Shown: piece by piece, positions 26,269 through 37,589 of the stretch | Layout of the letters: each line of letters begins with the position of its first letter | Position numbering within the stretch: position 1 is the first letter of the stretch | IMG/VR virus record: IMGVR_UViG_641522623_000002 | Strand: one strand, 5' to 3' | Length of the DNA: 37,589 nucleotides | Source of the DNA: a virus | Taxonomy: Duplodnaviria > Heunggongvirae > Uroviricota > Caudoviricetes | Notes under the pieces: generated by a model | Databases searched by the model: none | What the model was told of the DNA's origin: nothing | What the model saw: the letters and a program-made list of their open reading frames with translations, nothing else | Position numbers and translations under genes: made by a program

Positions 26269-26586
26269 TTATATACCACATACAAAATTGATCTTAACGC
26301 TTTTATCAACAACAAGCAGAGAAGTGCCAACAGACTTAATAAATCCCAGTTCATACTCTTCTGAATGCGTCATTGTAATAATATGAACAGGAACAAATAA
26401 ATCAAGCTCCCGCAGCTTTCGCTTCAATAATAAACCATCGACACAATCACCTATCACAAGCATATCAATATCATTTGCATCGCAAAAACTCTTTAATGCT
26501 GACCCAAATACATATACATCCACCATATATAAACTATGATGGATAATAACATCACAGATCGATTCAATCGTATGTTTAAAATTCAC
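26269..26586 (-). CDS. Minimal nucleotidyltransferase (Pol-beta superfamily, MNT-like), third gene of the cargo operon
   Basis: 105 aa; GS-x9-DxD motif (VYVFGSALKSFCDANDIDMLVIG); 1-nt overlap with the upstream gene; AT-rich. Confidence 0.7.
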   Translation of the reverse strand: MNFKHTIESICDVIIHHSLYMVDVYVFGSALKSFCDANDIDMLVIGDCVDGLLLKRKLRELDLFVPVHIITMTHSEEYELGFIKSVGTSLLVVDKSVKINFVCGI

Positions 26587-27245
26587 TACCGTGAAATTCT
26601 TCGTAATAAATCACCCAACTTGTAAAGCTCCACCCCGATACTTTGAGCAGCCTCTTTTGCCTGAGTCGTCAATCGTCCATTAGGATTGGAGGAAAAAACA
26701 ACATCACAATTGCCATGCAACCCTATCGCATCTCTTACAGAACCCGCTGTCATATCATAATCATTCGCAGCGATAATAACTAAGTCCGCCAAGCCACGTC
26801 TTTTAAGTCTATATTTTTTGTTGGTTTCTCGCTCTACAGAGCTTACATGTGAATGTTGATTGAACACTCTATTTATAAACAAATGCTCTTTATCAAGATG
26901 CTCAAGCGGATTATTAGCTCTTAAGGAAGATGCAATATGCCCAAATGAACCCACTCCTATTTTCTTTTGTTCTAGTAATCTCATTGCATCACCAGAGATA
27001 AATTCAACACCTCCCTTGACTGATAGAAAATCAATTTTTTTATTGTCTAGGTATTCATTTATCTCAGGACATGTTATCCGGCCAGTATTGATTGCCCCGA
27101 TCAAATAGGTGTCACCCTGTGTAGTATTAATCACTAAAGTACCATCATCTATCACCTCTATATTTTCGACACATTTATTTTCTTGTAATTTTCCTGCCAT
27201 CCATGAAATATAGCCTTCACTCGCATTTATGCTCATTGGATTCAT
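26586..27245 (-). CDS. Hypothetical protein, middle gene of the cargo operon (possible HEPN-like Rx4H motif)
   Basis: 219 aa; translationally coupled on both sides; contains RVFNQH; no confident family assignment from sequence alone. Confidence 0.6.
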   Translation of the reverse strand: MNPMSINASEGYISWMAGKLQENKCVENIEVIDDGTLVINTTQGDTYLIGAINTGRITCPEINEYLDNKKIDFLSVKGGVEFISGDAMRLLEQKKIGVGSFGHIASSLRANNPLEHLDKEHLFINRVFNQHSHVSSVERETNKKYRLKRRGLADLVIIAANDYDMTAGSVRDAIGLHGNCDVVFSSNPNGRLTTQAKEAAQSIGVELYKLGDLLRRISR

Positions 27246-27937
27246 CCTATAAATAGTTCAGATGCAGCTTCTGGAAACCTACTACCATTAGCATCGGTTA
27301 AGCCCAAATGTTTTGATTCAAAGTCATCTATATGAACACAAAGCTTTGAAAAAACATTCTTCTCATCTTCACTCATGAGGTGATAGTTTTGTTCAACCAG
27401 TCGCTGTACTTTTCTATTGTTGGGTAAGATATGAGATTGTACTTTTCTTAACCATACTTCTGCATTTGGATTTTCAGGGTCAACGCTGTTCTCTTGGGTT
27501 GGTCCATATGTTACAAAAATGGTATTGTTTTCTCTGAAGTATTTTTCTAACTCCTGTCTAACAGATTCTCGATTGTCATATGTTTTAACACCAAAGGTTG
27601 CATTTATTTTATCAATATGGCCGTTTTTCCAAGAACGGATAATTTCATCAGTAAAATGTTCCTCTGCCTTATCAATTGTCGTATGGCAATTAGCACATAG
27701 AAGAATAATGTTGTCAAAATGACCTCTCTGCTCATCAGTTAGATCAGCATTGGTTCTAGGTCCATTATCAATGGCACTAAAAATGTGAGCAAGTTCTCCA
27801 ATTGTTATATTTTTGTCGCCAGCATCAACAAACAAAGGTTGCAAGCATTGTGGATTTTGGCAAAAGCCACCTGAGCTGGCAAAAAGCCGTCTAACTGTAT
27901 TAGCGTTTGGAGAAGCTTTTCCCCTACTGCAAGCCAT
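27242..27937 (-). CDS. HNH-motif nuclease-like protein, first gene of the cargo operon
   Basis: 231 aa; CQNPQC...GELAHI...NIILLCANCHTTID (Cys pair, His, Asn, C-x2-CH) typical of HNH/His-Me finger nucleases; AAGG ribosome-binding site upstream. Confidence 0.7.
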   Translation of the reverse strand: MACSRGKASPNANTVRRLFASSGGFCQNPQCLQPLFVDAGDKNITIGELAHIFSAIDNGPRTNADLTDEQRGHFDNIILLCANCHTTIDKAEEHFTDEIIRSWKNGHIDKINATFGVKTYDNRESVRQELEKYFRENNTIFVTYGPTQENSVDPENPNAEVWLRKVQSHILPNNRKVQRLVEQNYHLMSEDEKNVFSKLCVHIDDFESKHLGLTDANGSRFPEAASELFIG

Positions 27938-28217: not shown

Positions 28218-28895
28218 CTAGAACGTGACAGCCTTGTCAAAGCCAGAAATAATTGTATAAGAAATAGACGAGTTATCAGCCTTGTTCACTTTGAACTTGG
28301 CACCTTTGTAAGCGATAACATCACTTCCCTTAGAATCTACAGAAAAATCTGTTGTAAATGCTGCACGAGCCATATCGTTTGCAAATTCACGATAGGTGAA
28401 CTTCATTACACCGCCTGCATTTCCATTGTATTCGATAGTCTTAACCAATGAATTACTCACTCGACACAGCCCATCAGGAACACGTTTGATAGAAATTTCT
28501 GATGCAGTATAAGAAGTGCCATTTGGCGGTGATATCTCATTTTTTGCAGCATCGTAACTAACATAATCAACATAGTTACCGATTTGCCCATAGAGATTTT
28601 TTAACGCAACAGCTTGAGGGTTATGATAATTGCGGTAAATTCCATTCCCCTCACTGCAATATGTACCAGCAGCGATAGAAGACAATGCACCATTAGCCGC
28701 ACCAAGTTCTAGTACGTCCGTTTTAAATCCAGTAGCAGATGTGATAATGGGATCGCCCATGTAGGCGGTAGCACTTTGCCCAATAGCTGGCTTCACCACT
28801 TCAATAGCAGTGATATTTCGGTTAGAAGCATGTGGCACGCAACCAGTTAGGATTACAGCAAGAGATATTGGTAACGCTACATTATTAATTTTCAT
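28218..28895 (-). CDS. AT-rich cargo gene: predicted lipoprotein of unknown function
   Basis: Signal peptide MKINNVALPISLAVILTGC with lipobox LTGC; about 225 aa from this Met (the ORF track extends to 28949); AT-rich; between the Tum operon and cos. Confidence 0.65.
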   Translation of the reverse strand: MKINNVALPISLAVILTGCVPHASNRNITAIEVVKPAIGQSATAYMGDPIITSATGFKTDVLELGAANGALSSIAAGTYCSEGNGIYRNYHNPQAVALKNLYGQIGNYVDYVSYDAAKNEISPPNGTSYTASEISIKRVPDGLCRVSNSLVKTIEYNGNAGGVMKFTYREFANDMARAAFTTDFSVDSKGSDVIAYKGAKFKVNKADNSSISYTIISGFDKAVTF

Positions 28896-29008
28896 TTTTA
28901 GCCTATTATTCTTTTCTTGACAAAAAACAAGGCGATATCTGATTGACATCGCCTCTCACTCATATGTAACCCTTTTTGATTAGTAAAAACAAGCGTCTAT
29001 TGACAAAA

Positions 29009-29242
29009 TCAATGCAGCCAGCTGTCGTCTTCCCACACCTTCTGCAAAATTTTCATCACTTGTTTTCTTTCTTCGTCCAGTTGCAGTCCGGTCAGTTCCA
29101 CACCGTTAGAGCTACCTTTACGGATACGGATTACCGTTTTGGGATACAGGGGGCGCAGATTGCGGTAAAGCTCGGATTCAAGGGCGTCCAGGGTAGACTG
29201 GCTAATCTTCTGCTCTTTATCGATCATTATTTCAATGCGCAT
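29009..29242 (-). CDS. DinI-family protein
   Basis: 77 aa from MRIEIMIDK...; resembles E. coli DinI (MRIEVTIAK...) and has the acidic C-terminus WEDDSWLH; GAGGTGA ribosome-binding site; second gene of the LexA-box operon. Confidence 0.7.
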   Translation of the reverse strand: MRIEIMIDKEQKISQSTLDALESELYRNLRPLYPKTVIRIRKGSSNGVELTGLQLDEERKQVMKILQKVWEDDSWLH

Positions 29243-29252
29243 AAAAGTCACC

Positions 29253-29441
29253 TCAGCTGATGACATCCATTGAGCGGTTGTATTCGTGGCTTCTGATTTT
29301 TGCCATGAGTTCATCTGTCAGTTCAGAAACCCACTGCAAAGCCAGCCCCTTCTCTTCATCACTACACTCACTAGCCGCTACAAGCTTAAGAAAAAAATCA
29401 ATGCGCTGGAGCTTCAAAGACTCCAAAAAATAGTCCTGCAT
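29253..29441 (-). CDS. Small protein, first gene of the SOS-regulated operon (possible Tum-like antirepressor module)
   Basis: 62 aa with a strong AGGAGG ribosome-binding site; LexA box about 45 bp upstream; function inferred from position only. Confidence 0.5.
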   Translation of the reverse strand: MQDYFLESLKLQRIDFFLKLVAASECSDEEKGLALQWVSELTDELMAKIRSHEYNRSMDVIS

Positions 29442-29481
29442 CTTTCCTCCTATGACACCAAAGCAATACTGTATACATAAC

Positions 29482-29501
29482 CACTGTTTATATTTACAGT
29501 A
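29482..29501 (-). promoter_or_regulatory. LexA (SOS) box
   Basis: caCTGTttatatttACAGta fits CTGT-N8-ACAG with an AT-rich spacer, positioned over the promoter of the 29441-29009 operon. Confidence 0.7.
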
Positions 29502-29593
29502 TATAATAATCTTACTGATGTAAAACGTTTTTTTACGTTCATCAGCCTGATATGCCTGGTATTATTAAGAGCACGAATTGTTAACCCGCGTAA

Positions 29594-31966
29594 TTAATAC
29601 AGGTTCCGCCACTTATCATCTTCCCGCAAACGTTGGTTCCGATAGAAGATACGCAGGCCTGCTCCTGACGGAATACTGCCGCCGCGAAGCAGTAAATCGA
29701 CCTCTTTCTCGCTGCCATCAAATCCCCTGGACTTCAGTTCATACACGAGCTGCTGTCGCTGATGATCTGTAATTCGCTGTTTGTAGTCTTTACGCCGTTT
29801 CGGTTTCACCAGGCGTAACCTTGCTGCCAGTTCCCGGCGCTCTTTTTTGTTCATACTGTGCAGGTAATCGTGCAACTCCTTGTCATCCATGCGGGTGATA
29901 TCCGTTCTGGTATCTCCATCAGCTGATTTGTCTTTCGCTTGTTGGTACAAATTTTCAGCAAGGGGACAGTTATTGCCACGAGTCCAAGGGGTGCAAGCGC
30001 CCTGGTCGGCTGCCGCCTCCTGAACATCAACGGCCTTACGAACCATTTTCCACTTCACGGCATGAGTGCAGATCTTGCCCTCTGCAATAGGTGACCAGAT
30101 GCCATAAATACGAATGCCGTGATCGCCATAGGCGGTCGGCTCTTCGTTGATTTCATAAGCGGTTCTGATGAGGTGATATTTGCGGGGAACCAGTACGCCG
30201 CCCTGCTTCATGATGTAGGTGGCAAAACAACCAGCATCAGCAGCAGCCAGGATGGCATCAAGGTGCGGGTTATCCAGTACCGGCGCACCTGCTTTTTTGT
30301 CCCCCTGTTGCCTTGCCGCCTGACCAGCCAGCAATCGCAGTTCACGGTAAGCCTGACGCCCCGGAATGCCAAAGAAGCGGAATTGCTGAACACGATGCAG
30401 AGACGCCCAGGCATTAACGTATTCAGCATTATCACGCAGGGATTTCCCCGTTTCCTTGCTGATCTCGCCAGCCAGACCACGCCCGTCAATGTTCTTACTG
30501 ATGTATTTCGCGATGTAGCTTGTTGGCGTACCTTTGCGCGGGTTAATCAACTCAGACTTAAAGCGCGGCCCAGTGTTATTGCCCAGTTCCTCGCGGTCTT
30601 CACGGATGGCAAACTTACGCAGTAATGCAGTGATGGCGCGGCGGTCTTTTTTGCGCATAAAACACAACAGGTGCCAGTGAACTGTACCGTCATGATGCGG
30701 CTCAGCCACCCGCACGCCATACCACCGCAATCCGGCTTTGTGCATCGCCTTACGAAATGCAGCAAACATGCCGACCAGATAATCACTGCTTTGTCTTACC
30801 GTCGCATTTGTCCAAGTTGGGTTGGGCCTGCCATTATTTAGCGTGGAATGGAAACGTGACGGACAGGTGATGGTGTAGAAAACGGCGCAGTCACCGCGCA
30901 TTTCCGCGATAAGCTCCAGGCCTTTAACACAGGCCATCATCTCATTGCGGCGATGCGCAGGGTTGCTGCTGCTGGCGTTTACCACATCCTCCATGTCCAG
31001 CGTGTCGCCGTCTTCGTTCACCAGTTCATGAGAACGAAAAAACTCCAGCGACTTACGGCGCTGCTCACGTTTATGCATCACGGCTTCATAGCTGACATAG
31101 GGAGATGCTTTTTTGCTGACCAGGCAGACAGCACGCAACTGCTCTTCCCGCCATTCGCAACGCATCTTCCATAATTTCCGGTACCACCAGTCAGCGCACA
31201 ACATACGCGCCAGCGAACCCGGAATGAGTTCATAGGGCACGGGTTTACGGCGGTTTCTTTTCCGGCGGAGTTGCTCAAACGCAGGCGGGATGACATCCAG
31301 ACGTAGGGTTTCCGCTGCCACCTTTTCCCATGTCTTGCGGATTTCTTCTGGCTTAACGTCATCGGTGACATACAAATCGCCACAAGCTGCATCAAGGCAC
31401 ATGCTCATATGCGCAGCTACCAGGGTGGACAGGCGTTTCACCTGATCCTGACTCATTTCAGGCAGGATCAGCAGGCCGTCCAGCCCTTCATGGCTTGCCA
31501 TAAAGCGAAAAGAAGTGGATAGCTGACAGTCGCGTACATGCTCCAGCCGTTCCAGACATGGCTTAATCGTCTCACGCAAATAGCGGGAATAAGCCTTTGG
31601 CCTGCCCAGGCTGCTGAAGTATTCAATACGTTGCATCAGCGGCTTGCTGATATGGGAAGGCTGGGCATTGACGTCCGCCAGAATGACCATATCTGGATTA
31701 AAACGCTGCTGCTCATGCGCCAGCTTTGCCCGACTAATGAGCTTATCCTGCTCCATTTCGCGCTGGACAGGATCACGGGATTCATTAAAGAAATAACGCT
31801 CCCAGACCTGATCACTCAGTGCTTCGCGGCGCAGCTGTTCCTGCTCGTTATCGGCAGCGTACAGAGCGATCAGGTTTGAAAGCGCAGAAACTGAAGATTG
31901 CTCTTCTGTCTCTACGTAAGGATTGATTGCTTTTTTCTCAGCATTCCAGGAATAGCTGTAGTTCAT
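29594..31966 (-). CDS. Replication initiation protein gpA (rolling-circle nickase)
   Basis: Large ORF in the P2 gene A position. Start chosen at the Met whose ATG overlaps the upstream stop (TAATG) and has a GGAG ribosome-binding site; the ORF track extends to 32017. Confidence 0.8.
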
Positions 31967-32796
31967 TACGCAATCTCCAGTTCGAGCTGTGAAGGCTGCA
32001 AACCATTCGACAGCCAATCAGAAACTGAAGGTGGGCGAACAGCTTCAATTGCACCTTTTAAAATTGCGCAACGGTTTTTCAGAATGACAGCTTTCAGCTC
32101 CTTTTCCGTCAGATTGCGCGAATATTCAGCCTCCTGAATAGCCCGCGTCAGCTCAGGATATTTGCTATTAAATTTGGGGACATTGCAGGCAAGATTTGTA
32201 CTGTCGGCAGTCGCCAGTGGGTAATTTCCCAACACACGACCGTCAAGCATGCGCAAACCATGAACAGCTGTTTTGAAATTGTGTCGGCAATAAATTGCTT
32301 CAAAAGCGTCCTGCATACGACGATGCCAGTGCGCAGTTCTGATAGCCGCATATTCACCAGACGATCCAAAGCAGACACGAGGCCATTCACGACATAGCTC
32401 GATAAGCCGATCGATTGACTCGTGCAGATGCCAGACGGGAGTTGCCTTCCCGTAGAACATTTTCGGAACTTCGTTTATCAGGGCATCATTGTCACGTTCA
32501 CCTCCGTCCACAACATCAGGAATGACAAAAAAAGCGACCTTAGGATGGTGGTAATAGTTCAGGAGCCATTTATAAAAATCACTCCAGTTAATTTTTAGCC
32601 CACGCACCCATGCAGAAAATGCGCCGTTATCAATGCCGACGACCTGAGCGTGCTGAATGGACGCCGCAATCTGATCTGGTCGTACATAGGAGACGAAAGC
32701 GCCAGCTCCGCTCACCGCAATACGATGAACGTCGCCAGCACTTCCCCAGACAGGCGTCCCATGGAAATGATGAATTCCGTGGTGCATTTCTTTCAC
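31966..32796 (-). CDS. Hypothetical protein, translationally coupled between the Dam methylase and gene A
   Basis: 276 aa; His-rich N-terminus; no family recognised from sequence alone. Confidence 0.6.
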
Positions 32797-35573: not shown

Positions 35574-36143
35574 ATGAATTTGGAGAAAGGCGGACGAGGC
35601 GCTATAGAGCGCATGGTAGAAGCTTATGGATTCAAAACTCGACAGGCGTTGTGCGATCATTTAGGAATCTCTAAAAGTACACTCGCCACACGCTACATGC
35701 GTGACTCATTCCCAGCAGAATGGGTAATCCAGTGCGCCCTTGAAACGGGCACCTCGCTTAATTGGCTCACAACCGGACATGGTTCAAAGCAAACTTCAGG
35801 TAATACAAATACTATGGAAGTTGCTAAATATGTATTATCTGATGGTGCCTTGCGTGAAGACGGTTTTTATATTTTTGATAAGGGATTTCTACCCTCTACG
35901 TTTAAAAAACCTTTTGTCATCACAGATAAAAATTCTGAATTTATTTGTGATAAAGAATTTGATGATATACGTGACGGTAAATGGGTAATAAGTATTGATG
36001 GCGAAATAACAATCCGCGACATTACTCGTTTACCCGGTGGAAGAATCTTCGTTGAAGGTGGAAACAGAGCCTTCGAGTGCAAGATAGAAGATGTTGAAAT
36101 AATTGGGAAAATTATAAGTTTAACAATTAAGTACGTTAGGTAA
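35574..36143 (+). CDS. cI: Immunity repressor CI (phage-186-type, two-domain)
   Basis: 189 aa from the ATG preceded by GGAG (the ORF track begins at a GTG at 35568); N-terminal HTH (ALCDHLGISKSTLATRYMR); size as 186 CI. Confidence 0.7.
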   Translation: MNLEKGGRGAIERMVEAYGFKTRQALCDHLGISKSTLATRYMRDSFPAEWVIQCALETGTSLNWLTTGHGSKQTSGNTNTMEVAKYVLSDGALREDGFYIFDKGFLPSTFKKPFVITDKNSEFICDKEFDDIRDGKWVISIDGEITIRDITRLPGGRIFVEGGNRAFECKIEDVEIIGKIISLTIKYVR

Positions 36144-36158
36144 TACCGGGAGGAAACT

Positions 36159-36350
36159 ATGCTTGGTAAGGTATTTTTTGTGGTTTTATCATGCTCTTTG
36201 TTATTAAACCCACTAACTACCTATGCTAAAAATTATCCTTGTTCTGGGAAAAAGGGAGGTGTCTCTCACTGTACCTCCGATGGAAAGTTCGTTTGCAATG
36301 ATGGAACTATTAGTAAATCAAAAAAAATCTGTACTAAAAACTCGCGATAA
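36159..36350 (+). CDS. Small secreted Cys-rich protein (possible moron)
   Basis: 63 aa; signal peptide ending ...TTYA; mature ~40 aa with 6 Cys; strong GGGAGGA ribosome-binding site; AT-rich; between cI and int. Confidence 0.5.
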
Positions 36351-36536
36351 ATTTTGCTTTTATATCTGCGCCTAATATAACAATGAGCCGCAGGCTAACC
36401 GCAAAAGTCACATACTCACATAGCAAAAAATAGCCAACTTCATTATGGCTTCAGTGAGATGTATGGTCGCAGGATTTCATACATTGACACTGGTTATACA
36501 TACAGTAAAAATGCTCTCTATTGGAGGGCATTTTTT

Positions 36537-37589
36537 ATGGCAGTACGAAAACTCACCACAGGAAAATGGCTTTGCGAATGTTACCCCGCCGGACGTAGTG
36601 GACGCCGTGTGCGTAAACAATTCGCCACCAAAGGCGAAGCTCTGGCTTTTGAGCGTCACACGATGGAAGAAACCGAAGCAAAGCCCTGGCTGGGCGAATC
36701 AGTGGATCGTCGGACATTGAAAGACGTGGTTGAGCTATGGTTCAAACTACATGGTAAATCTCTAACCGCTGGGCAGCATGTCTATGACAAATTGCTGTTG
36801 ATGGTTGATGCTCTGGGCAATCCTCTTGCAACCGATCTCACCTCTAAAATGTTTGCCCACTATCGAGATAAACGCCTGACAGGCGAGATCTACTTCAGCG
36901 AGAAATGGAAGAAAGGAGCAAGCCCGGTCACCATTAACCTGGAGCAAAGCTATCTAAGTAGTGTTTTTAGCGAACTATCCCGTCTGGGCGAATGGTCGTA
37001 TCCGAACCCACTGGAGAACATGCGAAAATTCACCATCGCAGAAAAAGAGATGGCATGGCTTACCCATGAGCAGATTGTTGAATTGCTGGCTGATTGCAAA
37101 CGTCAGGACCCAATTCTGGCACTGGTAGTTAAGATATGCTTAAGCACAGGCGCACGCTGGCGTGAAGCCGTAAATCTTACCCGCTCACAGGTGACCAAAT
37201 ACCGAATTACCTTTGTCAGAACGAAGGGGAAGAAAAACAGAAGCATCCCTATCAGTAAAGAGCTTTACGAAGAGATCATGGCGCTTGATGGGTTCAATTT
37301 CTTCACAGACTGCTATTTTCAATTTTTATCCGTGATGGAAAAAACGTCTATCGTGCTCCCTCGCGGTCAACTGACACACGTTCTGCGCCATACGTTTGCG
37401 GCGCACTTCATGATGTCGGGTGGAAACATTCTGGCCTTACAAAAAATTCTTGGACACCACGATATAAAAATGACTATGCGTTACGCACATCTGGCACCGG
37501 ATCATCTGGAAACGGCGCTCCGTTTCAATCCTCTGGCAACGCTGCCAAATGGCGACAAAGTGGCGGCAGCGGTTGGCATTACCCCGTAA
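36537..37589 (+). CDS. int: Tyrosine integrase (P2/186 type)
   Basis: 350 aa from MAVRKL (GGAGGG ribosome-binding site); LCLSTGARWREA and HVLRHTFA...MRYAHL catalytic-box motifs; stop codon is the last base of the window. Confidence 0.88.
   Translation: MAVRKLTTGKWLCECYPAGRSGRRVRKQFATKGEALAFERHTMEETEAKPWLGESVDRRTLKDVVELWFKLHGKSLTAGQHVYDKLLLMVDALGNPLATDLTSKMFAHYRDKRLTGEIYFSEKWKKGASPVTINLEQSYLSSVFSELSRLGEWSYPNPLENMRKFTIAEKEMAWLTHEQIVELLADCKRQDPILALVVKICLSTGARWREAVNLTRSQVTKYRITFVRTKGKKNRSIPISKELYEEIMALDGFNFFTDCYFQFLSVMEKTSIVLPRGQLTHVLRHTFAAHFMMSGGNILALQKILGHHDIKMTMRYAHLAPDHLETALRFNPLATLPNGDKVAAAVGITP

What the first reader, a model, noticed from the sequence alone, without database searches (positions are those of the whole stretch)
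29009..29501. LexA-box-controlled two-gene operon (small protein plus DinI-like), a likely SOS induction module
A near-consensus LexA box (CTGT-ttatattt-ACAG) overlaps the promoter of a 62-aa ORF followed by a DinI-family gene. In phage 186, SOS induction works through the LexA-repressed antirepressor Tum, encoded near the right end of the genome. The same position and regulation here suggest a Tum-like function split into two ORFs.
Basis: partly seen in the sequence, partly recalled or inferred. Interest (0 to 1): 0.45.

Follow-up and report, generated by a model that had tools for sequence, protein, structure and literature searches.

The report
Split tum antirepressor–DinI SOS operon
This is the known DNA-damage switch of a Fels-2/186-type P2-like prophage, a LexA-repressed pair of genes for a small antirepressor (Tum) and a DinI homologue, and the identical small protein has already been shown in E. 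coli HS to be needed for prophage induction, so the finding is correct but ordinary.

Summary
All features lie on the minus strand. Downstream of the gpA replicase gene sit a promoter (TTTACA, 17 nt, TACTGT), a strong LexA box (29482..29501, 17/20 to consensus), a 62-aa ORF (29253..29441) and a 77-aa DinI-family gene (29009..29242), followed by a terminator.

The 62-aa protein is homologous to residues 3-44 of phage 186 Tum (hhalign E 4.5e-8; PHROG cross-hits). The DinI gene matches Tum's C-terminal half (43% identity). PSP3 is annotated tumA/tumB. Lemire 2011, citing Bunny 2002, states that Fels-2 and PSP3 carry tum split by a stop codon.

The 62-aa protein is 100% identical to ECHS_RS04495, the "tum" of E. 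coli HS prophage DuoHS. Its deletion, or lexA(Ind-), blocks mitomycin C induction (Ortiz de Ora 2025). The Fels-2 operon is induced 5-15-fold by a mutagen.

Two observations of mine are untested. The operator looks like a colicin-type double overlapping SOS box (30/36 identical to the ColE1 cea operator). A second, conserved LexA box lies inside a promoter-like site just upstream of int (36488..36507).

Verdict: already known, low interest.

The parts
29514..29546 (-). Inverted repeat (hairpin) between the gpA stop codon (29594) and the promoter. The -35 hexamer is embedded in its 3' arm. It may be a weak terminator or insulator for the early transcript.
   Evidence: RNA fold -12.6 kcal/mol, z -3.4. 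There is no U-run after it. Lemire 2011 notes terminator-like palindromes ahead of the LexA boxes of Gifsy SOS operons.
29519..29524 (-). -35 hexamer TTTACA of the p95-like SOS promoter
   Evidence: Read from the sequence. TTTTACA is invariant in 9 related prophages. It is analogous to the annotated 186 p95 -35 TTCACA.
29496..29501 (-). -10 hexamer TACTGT, which is also the left half of LexA box 1. Spacer to the -35 is 17 nt.
   Evidence: The 186 p95 -10 is annotated as the same hexamer, TACTGT, inside its LexA site. The consensus scan missed it because TACTGT matches TATAAT at only 3 of 6 positions.
29482..29501 (-). LexA box 1, TACTGTAAATATAAACAGTG (17/20 to consensus)
   Evidence: It is the only match within 3 mismatches in the window, with 0 of 100 shuffles matching. 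TATACTGTA and CAGT are invariant across relatives. It ranks 2nd and 4th of 75,140 20-mers in an approximate heterology-index scan.
29467..29486 (-). Candidate LexA box 2, CAGTGGTTATGTATACAGTA (15/20), overlapping box 1 by 5 bp. Together the two boxes resemble a colicin-type double SOS operator.
   Evidence: It ranks 5th and 6th of 75,140 20-mers, far from the background. ATACAG is invariant in all relatives, and this box aligns with the single LexA box of 186 and PSP3. The 36-nt operator is 30/36 identical to the ColE1 cea operator, and the Fels-2 version is 32/36.
29253..29441 (-). tumA-like gene: 62-aa helical-hairpin protein, the probable antirepressor of the 186-type CI
   Evidence: SD AGGAGG at 29446..29451. 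phrog_698 hit at 5.9e-38. Homology to Tum residues 3-44. 100% identical to ECHS_RS04495, the tum of DuoHS. AlphaFold2 model with helices 2-23 and 28-61, pLDDT 88.
29009..29242 (-). DinI-family gene (77 aa), equivalent to tumB and to the C-terminal half of 186 Tum
   Evidence: Pfam DinI 4.6e-23. 43% identity to Tum residues 71-145. End-to-end alignment with E. coli DinI, PDB 1GHH, E 1.4e-6. SD GAGGTG overlaps the tumA stop codon.
28919..28955 (-). Intrinsic-terminator-like hairpin with a T-run, in the position of 186 t95a
   Evidence: 11-bp stem followed by GTTTTTTGTC. Fold -17.1 kcal/mol, z -3.7.
28218..28895 (-). 225-aa putative lipoprotein (signal MKINNVALPISLAVILTGC), a cargo gene in the position of 186 orf97 but not homologous to it. 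It may be reached by read-through.
   Evidence: phrog_1353 hit from residue 19 of the longer ORF. No similarity to Orf97. RefSeq start confirmed. The Fels-2 genes STM2726-2727-2728 behaved as one mutagen-responsive operon.
35574..36143 (+). 186-type CI repressor, the presumed target of the antirepressor
   Evidence: Pfam Phage_CI_repr plus Phage_CI_C, with no S24 peptidase domain. 95% identical to DuoHS CI and 31% to 186 CI.
36484..36512 (+). Second candidate LexA-controlled promoter, just upstream of int. TTGACA-17-AAAAAT, with the LexA-like box CACTGGTTATACATACAGTA (36488..36507) filling the spacer.
   Evidence: Best heterology-index score in the window. Promoter scan match of 10/12. Conserved, with the box becoming a perfect CTGT-N8-ACAG, in int modules that are about 71% identical.

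Best explanation
This is the SOS induction module of a Fels-2/DuoHS-type P2-like prophage, resident in E. coli ATCC 8739-like genomes. In the lysogen, LexA sits on an operator that overlaps the -10 and the start region of a promoter downstream of gene A. On DNA damage, RecA* drives LexA self-cleavage and the promoter fires. Two small proteins are then made from one mRNA. The first is a 62-aa helical-hairpin antirepressor, homologous to TumA and to the N-terminal part of 186 Tum. It is inferred to bind the non-cleavable 186-type CI and stop it binding its operators, which derepresses the lytic promoter. The second is a 77-aa DinI homologue (TumB), inferred to modulate RecA filaments and so tune the strength or duration of the SOS signal. 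What is shown: the sequence anatomy; homology to both halves of Tum; the requirement for this exact 62-aa protein and for cleavable LexA in mitomycin C induction of prophage DuoHS; and damage-inducible transcription of the about 97%-identical Fels-2 locus. What is inferred: direct binding to CI; the role of DinI; and occupancy of the operator by two LexA dimers, as in colicin operators, which would give tight repression and late induction.
For: - Anatomy and statistics of the box and promoter.
- DinI membership.
- 62-aa protein to Tum N-terminus homology.
- Synteny with 186, PSP3 and Fels-2.
- The same RefSeq protein, WP_001154431.1, is found in E. coli HS as ECHS_RS04495. Ortiz de Ora 2025 name this gene tum and delete it; the deletion and lexA(Ind-) strains do not lyse or form virions after mitomycin C.
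- Lemire 2011 (PMC3121763): Tum binds CI, its second half is DinI-like, Fels-2 and PSP3 have tum split by a stop codon, and the PSP3 upstream gene is the antirepressor.
- STM2727, within the operon STM2726-2727-2728, is induced 5.5-14.8-fold by the mutagen MX.
- The cognate CI is 186-type without an S24 peptidase domain.
- Phylogenetic footprint of -35, box 1, box 2 and SD across nine prophages.
- Operator similarity to the ColE1 cea double box. Colicin double boxes bind two LexA dimers (PMC2994835).
Against: - No experiment exists on this exact window.
- The 62-aa protein is only about 21% identical to the Tum N-terminus, and BLASTP finds nothing.
- Its binding to CI has not been demonstrated for this subfamily. 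The PSP3 statement is a personal communication relayed through two papers.
- I found no complementation of the DuoHS tum deletion, so a polar or translational effect on the downstream dinI or lipoprotein genes is not formally excluded.
- Box 2 has a degenerate left half (GTGG instead of CTGT), and its conservation could reflect the transcript's 5' end rather than LexA binding.
- My heterology-index matrix was rebuilt from memory and does not reproduce published values, so it is only a ranking device.
Confidence: 0.9

Rival explanations
1. The operon is only an SOS-modulating cargo. The DinI homologue damps or stabilises RecA filaments for the benefit of host or phage, and the 62-aa protein is an unrelated small accessory protein. 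Prophage induction would then be triggered elsewhere.
For: The DinI gene is the only product with a Pfam assignment. In Gifsy prophages, dinI deletions had no effect on induction, which shows that prophage dinI genes can be dispensable passengers. Databases label the 62-aa protein 'hypothetical'.
Against: Deleting exactly this 62-aa gene abolishes mitomycin C induction of DuoHS. The protein shows profile-level homology to the antirepressor half of Tum. The CI has no autocleavage domain, so an antirepressor is required.
Confidence: 0.04
2. The 62-aa protein promotes induction without targeting CI, for example by acting on LexA, on RecA, or together with DinI as a two-subunit equivalent of full-length Tum that needs both halves.
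For: In 186 the two parts are one polypeptide. Shorter in-frame products are annotated as 'modulating SOS induction'. No binding data exist for the split form. The two genes appear translationally coupled, since the SD of dinI overlaps the tumA stop codon.
Against: The DuoHS tum deletion strain still shows normal SOS reporter activation, so the protein is not needed for LexA or RecA signalling. In PSP3 the upstream gene alone is reported to carry the antirepressor activity. Gifsy antirepressors of similar size act alone on their repressors.
Confidence: 0.05
3. The LexA box is a chance AT-rich palindrome and the operon is constitutive or controlled by the phage.
For: The bare CTGT-N8-ACAG motif is expected 0.56 times per window by chance.
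Against: The 20-mer match never occurs in 100 shuffles. The box is invariant in diverged relatives and occupies the same position as the annotated 186 LexA site. lexA(Ind-) blocks induction of DuoHS, and the Fels-2 locus is mutagen-inducible.
Confidence: 0.01

Closest known systems
Tum antirepressor of coliphage 186 (p95-tum-orf97 SOS operon; Lamont 1989, Brumby 1996, Shearwin 1998)
   Same: Same position after gene A and the same orientation. LexA box forming the -10 (TACTGT). N-terminal region homologous to the 62-aa protein and C-terminal DinI-like region homologous to the 77-aa protein. A terminator and then a cargo gene follow. The cognate CI has the same two-domain, non-cleavable family architecture.
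   Different: In 186 the two parts are one 146-aa polypeptide with nested in-frame starts; here they are two cistrons separated by TGA plus 10 nt. 186 has a single near-consensus LexA box, whereas here there is a probable double overlapping box. The downstream cargo gene is unrelated to orf97. The N-terminal parts are only about 21% identical.
tumA/tumB of PSP3 and STM2728/STM2726.1 of Fels-2
   Same: The same split architecture. The Fels-2 locus is 97% identical in DNA and its 62-aa protein is 97% identical. PSP3 is annotated tumA ('UV induction of prophage') and tumB (DinI).
   Different: PSP3 TumA belongs to a different subfamily (phrog_1993; 22% identity), and PSP3 has a single LexA box like 186.
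tum (ECHS_RS04495) of P2-like prophage DuoHS, E. coli HS (Ortiz de Ora et al. 2025, Phollow)
   Same: An identical 62-aa protein (WP_001154431.1), an identical LexA box 1 within a near-identical promoter/operator region (two spacer substitutions in box 2), and a CI that is 95% identical. It is experimentally required for mitomycin C induction, as is cleavable LexA.
   Different: Nothing substantive. The window comes from another E. coli prophage, 100% identical to ATCC 8739 over the 751-bp region queried (28900..29650), with a different cargo region next to it.
Gifsy/Fels-1 LexA-controlled antirepressors (GfoA, GftA, FsoA) and N15 AntC
   Same: A LexA-repressed operon that couples a small antirepressor with a dinI homologue. 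The repressor is inactivated by binding rather than cleavage.
   Different: The gene order is reversed (dinI first). The antirepressors and repressors are unrelated in sequence, and the prophages are lambdoid.
Colicin-type double overlapping SOS boxes (e.g. ColE1 cea operator)
   Same: Two 20-nt LexA boxes that share CAGTG. The operator is 30/36 nt identical to ColE1 TGCTGTATATAAAACCAGTGGTTATATGTACAGTAT, and the Fels-2 version is 32/36. In colicin operators this arrangement binds two LexA dimers and gives very tight repression.
   Different: Outside the operator the promoters are unrelated. Box 1 here is stronger (ACAG instead of CCAG). Binding of two dimers at this operator is untested.
E. 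coli DinI (PDB 1GHH, 7YWA)
   Same: Full-length alignment of 77 aa against 81 aa, with the same conserved C-terminal WE(D/S)..W helix region.
   Different: Phage-borne and co-transcribed with an antirepressor. Its effect on RecA has not been tested.

Membership tests
186-type Tum antirepressor module | Transcribed from a LexA-repressed promoter | tested here: met
   At sequence level, a 17/20 LexA box forms the -10, with 0 of 100 shuffles matching, and it is conserved in relatives. Experimental support from near-identical loci: lexA(Ind-) blocks DuoHS induction, and the Fels-2 operon is mutagen-induced.
186-type Tum antirepressor module | Sequence homology to the N-terminal (non-DinI) part of Tum | tested here: met
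   hhalign probability 94.9%, E 4.5e-8, residues 3-44. Reciprocal PHROG links. Pairwise BLASTP is negative, so this is remote homology.
186-type Tum antirepressor module | Located immediately downstream of replication gene A, followed by a DinI-like coding sequence | tested here: met
186-type Tum antirepressor module | Cognate repressor is a 186-type CI (HTH plus CI_C domain, no RecA-stimulated autocleavage domain) | tested here: met
   Pfam PF07022 plus PF16452 and no Peptidase_S24 domain. 31% identity to 186 CI.
186-type Tum antirepressor module | Protein is required for SOS induction of the prophage | not testable with these tools
   Published for the identical protein in DuoHS. Not tested for this window's prophage.
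186-type Tum antirepressor module | Binds CI and reversibly prevents operator binding | not testable with these tools
   Shown for 186 Tum (Shearwin 1998, as cited). Only inferred here.
DinI family (PF06183) | Passes the Pfam gathering threshold over the whole domain | tested here: met
   81.8 bits against a cutoff of 24.2, profile positions 1-63 of 63. Aligns with PDB 1GHH over residues 1-75.
DinI family (PF06183) | Binds RecA filaments | not testable with these tools
   No data.
Colicin-type double overlapping SOS operator | Two 20-nt LexA boxes overlapping by a few bp, with outer CTGT and ACAG halves intact | tested here: met
   Box 1 at 29482..29501 and box 2 at 29467..29486 overlap by 5 bp. 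The operator is 30/36 identical to the ColE1 cea operator.
Colicin-type double overlapping SOS operator | Occupied by two LexA dimers | not testable with these tools
   Needs a footprint or gel shift.

The most novel reading that the evidence does not exclude
The prophage may carry a small internal SOS regulon with two LexA-controlled nodes. The first is the tumA-dinI operon, guarded by a colicin-type double overlapping SOS operator. Two LexA dimers there would make antirepressor synthesis very tight and late, acting as a commitment threshold, unlike the single box of 186 and PSP3. The second is a separate LexA-repressed promoter directly upstream of int, which would supply integrase for excision only on DNA damage. 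I found neither feature described in the papers I could search.
Probability: 0.4. Interest if true: 0.35.

Novelty: already known. Interest (0 to 1): 0.12.

Why it matters
The module explains how this very common prophage is induced by DNA damage even though its repressor cannot be cleaved. The locus is present in 1124 of 5426 complete E. coli genomes and in many Klebsiella and Salmonella prophages. That mechanism is already established for 186, Fels-2, PSP3 and DuoHS. The practical value here is annotation: the widespread 62-aa 'hypothetical protein' WP_001154431.1, sometimes mislabelled 'levan regulatory protein', should be called the TumA-type antirepressor. Two things could add something new if confirmed. 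One is the colicin-like double operator, which would set induction threshold and timing. The other is the conserved LexA box in front of int, which would couple excision to SOS.

Tried and rejected
- BLASTP of the 62-aa protein against 186 Tum found no alignment. Profile methods were needed.
- Pfam gave only a sub-threshold PPP1R21_C hit for the 62-aa protein, and no solved structure matches it by sequence.
- An exhaustive phmmer search of 1.8 billion representatives found a small family of 67 clusters, nearly all standalone proteins of 55-75 aa. No fused Tum-length member appeared, so single-sequence searching does not bridge to 186 Tum.
- I rejected the 101-aa reading of the DinI ORF from ATG 29314. 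The Pfam domain, the SD sequence, the homologues and RefSeq all point to the 77-aa form.
- I rejected homology between the 243-aa downstream ORF and 186 Orf97, which happens to have the same length (E 4.5). The real start gives a 225-aa lipoprotein.
- The consensus promoter scan found no promoter for the operon because TACTGT scores only 3/6. I identified it by analogy with the annotated p95.
- Bunny, Liu and Roth 2002, the primary Fels-2 paper, is not held, so it is cited only through Lemire 2011.
- A whole-word search for TumA/TumB returned only irrelevant papers.
- My heterology-index matrix, rebuilt from remembered E. coli sites, does not reproduce published values. For example it gives umuDC 0.41 against the published 2.77. 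I used it only to rank sites.
- A literature search for LexA control of int in P2-like phages found nothing.
- I did not run a fold search on the 62-aa helical hairpin, because a two-helix model gives uninformative matches.

Full report
**1. What is at the coordinates**

The finding spans 29009..29501, and every feature in it is on the minus strand. Read 5' to 3' on that strand, the order is as follows.
- The gpA-like replication endonuclease gene ends at 29594.
- A 152-nt spacer follows. It contains an inverted repeat at 29514..29546 (-12.6 kcal/mol, z -3.4).
- The -35 hexamer TTTACA lies at 29519..29524, followed by a 17-nt spacer.
- The -10 hexamer TACTGT lies at 29496..29501.
- An AGGAGG Shine-Dalgarno sequence precedes a 62-aa ORF at 29253..29441.
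- The ORF's TGA stop overlaps a GAGGTG Shine-Dalgarno sequence.
- A 77-aa ORF follows at 29009..29242.
- A strong terminator-like hairpin with a T-run lies at 28919..28955.
- A 225-aa putative lipoprotein gene lies at 28218..28895.

All coordinates and hexamers were checked by script.

**2. Is the LexA box more than chance?**

The bare CTGT-N8-ACAG motif occurs once in the window, but 0.56 occurrences are expected by chance. On its own it proves nothing.

The 20-mer is a different matter. It is TACTGTAAATATAAACAGTG on the minus strand and matches the consensus TACTGTATATATATACAGTA at 17 of 20 positions. No shuffle out of 100 produces any site within 3 mismatches.

The box supplies the -10 hexamer. 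This is exactly the arrangement of the annotated 186 p95 promoter, TTCACA-18-TACTGT, which lies within its annotated LexA site.

I aligned nine related prophages from four Peduoviridae genera plus E. coli HS, with operon DNA identity down to about 76%. The elements TTTTACA, TATACTGTA, CAGT and the Shine-Dalgarno sequence are invariant while the surrounding spacer diverges and carries indels.

**3. What the two proteins are**

*The 77-aa protein.* It is a DinI-family protein (PF06183, 81.8 bits against a cutoff of 24.2). It aligns end to end with E. coli DinI, PDB 1GHH. It is 43% identical to residues 71-145 of 186 Tum (E 1e-24).

*The 62-aa protein.* It has no Pfam family, no relative with a solved structure and no BLASTP similarity to Tum. 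Profile methods connect it to Tum nonetheless.
- It belongs to phrog_698 (5.9e-38), with weaker hits to phrog_8554 (1e-8) and phrog_1993 (2e-3).
- The first 69 residues of 186 Tum hit phrog_1993 (1.5e-23), phrog_8554 (3e-12) and phrog_698 (5.7e-6). PSP3 TumA is a phrog_1993 member.
- A profile of 28 diverse family members, drawn from an exhaustive phmmer search, aligns with 186 Tum residues 3-44 at hhalign probability 94.9%, E 4.5e-8.
- The shared core is a Cys followed seven residues later by AL-x-[LW]-[IV]-[AS]-[ED]-[LI].
- AlphaFold2 with that alignment predicts a two-helix hairpin (helices 2-23 and 28-61, mean pLDDT 88), with the conserved Cys in the turn.

**4. Context and target**

The window is a P2-like prophage. 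The 751-bp region queried (28900..29650) is 100% identical to E. coli ATCC 8739. The locus occurs in 1124 of 5426 complete E. coli genomes. It is 97-98% identical to Fels-2 and to many Klebsiella prophages.

The immunity repressor (35574..36143, + strand) has the 186-type architecture, Phage_CI_repr plus Phage_CI_C, with no S24 autopeptidase domain. It is 31% identical to 186 CI and 95% identical to the CI of E. coli HS prophage DuoHS. A repressor of this kind cannot be inactivated by RecA-stimulated self-cleavage, so it needs an antirepressor.

**5. What is already published**

- The 186 record annotates p95, the LexA site, tum, t95a and orf97. It lists nested in-frame products whose shortest form is the DinI-like part ('modulates SOS induction').
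- The PSP3 record annotates tumA ('similar to 5' end 186 tum; UV induction of prophage') and tumB ('similar to dinI and 3' end of 186 tum').
- The Fels-2 record refers its DinI gene to PSP3 TumB.
- Lemire et al. 2011 (PMC3121763) state that Tum binds its repressor and is DinI-like in its second half. [quoted passage not shown] They cite Bunny et al. 2002 and a personal communication from G. E. Christie.
- Ortiz de Ora et al. 2025 (PMC12055606) deleted 'tum (locus tag ECHS_RS04495)' in E. coli HS. They showed that the tum deletion and lexA(Ind-) strains neither lyse nor form virions after mitomycin C, while the tum deletion strain keeps a normal SOS reporter response.
- ECHS_RS04495 is a 189-bp gene directly upstream of a DinI-like gene. 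Its product is 100% identical to the window's 62-aa protein, and RefSeq gives both the same accession, WP_001154431.1.
- In Salmonella TA100, which carries Fels-2, STM2726-2727-2728 scored as one responsive operon. STM2727 was the most significant LexA-regulon gene, rising 5.5-14.8-fold with the mutagen MX. That STM2727 is the DinI-like gene is my inference from its position.

**6. Mechanism**

- Shown or published for identical or near-identical loci: LexA dependence, DNA-damage inducibility, and the requirement of the 62-aa gene for induction.
- Inferred by homology with 186 Tum: the 62-aa hairpin binds CI and prevents operator binding, which derepresses the early lytic promoter.
- Inferred from family membership only: the DinI homologue modulates RecA filaments and so shapes the SOS signal. 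In Gifsy prophages, dinI deletions had no visible effect on induction, so this part may be dispensable.
- Read-through of the terminator at 28919..28955 may carry SOS-dependent transcription into the lipoprotein gene. This would parallel t95a/orf97 in 186, although the two cargo proteins are unrelated.

**7. Refinement not in the finding: a probable double operator**

Immediately downstream of box 1, and overlapping it by 5 bp, lies CAGTGGTTATGTATACAGTA (29467..29486, 15/20 to consensus). Three lines of evidence suggest it matters.
- Its ATACAG is invariant in all nine relatives, and it aligns with the single LexA box of 186 and PSP3.
- In an approximate heterology-index scan of all 75,140 20-mers of the window, it ranks directly after box 1. 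Its score is 7.4-10.1, against 12.6 for the best background site. That matrix was rebuilt from remembered sites and does not reproduce published values, so only the ranking is used.
- The combined 36-nt operator is 30/36 identical to the ColE1 cea operator TGCTGTATATAAAACCAGTGGTTATATGTACAGTAT, which I read directly from plasmid NC_001371. The Fels-2 version is 32/36 identical, and its second box is identical to that of ColE1.

Colicin operators of this type bind two LexA dimers and give very tight repression with expression in only a small fraction of cells (PMC2994835). I therefore propose that this lineage guards antirepressor synthesis with a double operator, unlike 186 and PSP3. This is untested.

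**8. Also seen: a conserved LexA box in front of int**

The best-scoring LexA-like site in the whole window is not in the finding. CACTGGTTATACATACAGTA (36488..36507, + strand) fills the spacer of a promoter-like site, TTGACA-17-AAAAAT (10/12 match). It lies about 25 nt upstream of the Shine-Dalgarno sequence and ATG of int (36537).

The site is identical in DuoHS. It is conserved in int modules of 4LV2017, KP12 and the Quadragintavirus phages ESSI2_ev129 and ev040. The last two are about 71% identical, and there the box becomes a perfect CTGT-N8-ACAG while the flanks diverge.

This suggests an SOS-inducible int promoter. I found no paper describing one.

**9. Verdict**

Novelty is therefore 'already known' and interest is low. 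What remains of interest is the possible colicin-type double operator and the LexA box in front of int.

Noticed in passing
window 36484..36539 (+): A LexA-like box, CACTGGTTATACATACAGTA (36488..36507), is the best-scoring site in the window. It lies in the spacer of a promoter-like TTGACA-17-AAAAAT just upstream of the int SD and ATG (36537). It is identical in DuoHS and conserved in diverged int modules (4LV2017, KP12, ESSI2_ev129/ev040), becoming a perfect CTGT-N8-ACAG in the last two. This may be an SOS-inducible int promoter. I found no publication on it.
   Followed up: partly
window 29467..29486 (-): A second, degenerate LexA box overlaps box 1 by 5 bp. The 36-nt operator is 30/36 identical to the ColE1 cea double SOS box. 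186 and PSP3 have only one box, which aligns with this second one.
   Followed up: partly
window 26269..27937 (-): Three co-oriented hypothetical genes lie between the portal gene and the lipoprotein gene, in the P2 cargo hotspot: a 231-aa protein with an HNH-endonuclease-like N-terminus (PADLOC candidate system PDC-M68A, 2e-29), a 219-aa protein, and a 105-aa protein with a weak nucleotidyltransferase signal. This is probably an anti-phage defence cargo. E. coli HS and Fels-2 carry different genes at this position.
   Followed up: partly
window 28218..28895 (-): A 225-aa putative lipoprotein (lipobox LTGC; phrog_1353, function unknown) lies directly after the operon's terminator. It is the same RefSeq protein as in E. 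coli HS. It sits where 186 has the superinfection-blocking orf97 but is unrelated to it. The longest ORF (243 aa) happens to have the same length as Orf97.
   Followed up: partly
window 36159..36350 (+): A 63-aa ORF with a signal-peptide-like N-terminus and four Cys in the mature part lies between cI and int. It is annotated hypothetical in E. coli HS (ECHS_RS23290) and has no Pfam hit. 186 has no gene here, because its cI and int overlap.
   Followed up: no
window 29253..29441 (-), database annotations: Some records label the 62-aa protein 'levan regulatory (domain) protein' (for example MK416009, and a UniRef name). I found nothing to support that name, and it appears to be a propagated mis-annotation.
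   Followed up: no
window 31966..32796 (-): A 276-aa ORF lies between the Dam-like methylase and gpA. RefSeq annotates it as hypothetical, 822 bp, in ATCC 8739. E. coli HS and Fels-2 lack it, and there the methylase abuts gpA. It is a variable insertion in the early operon.
   Followed up: no
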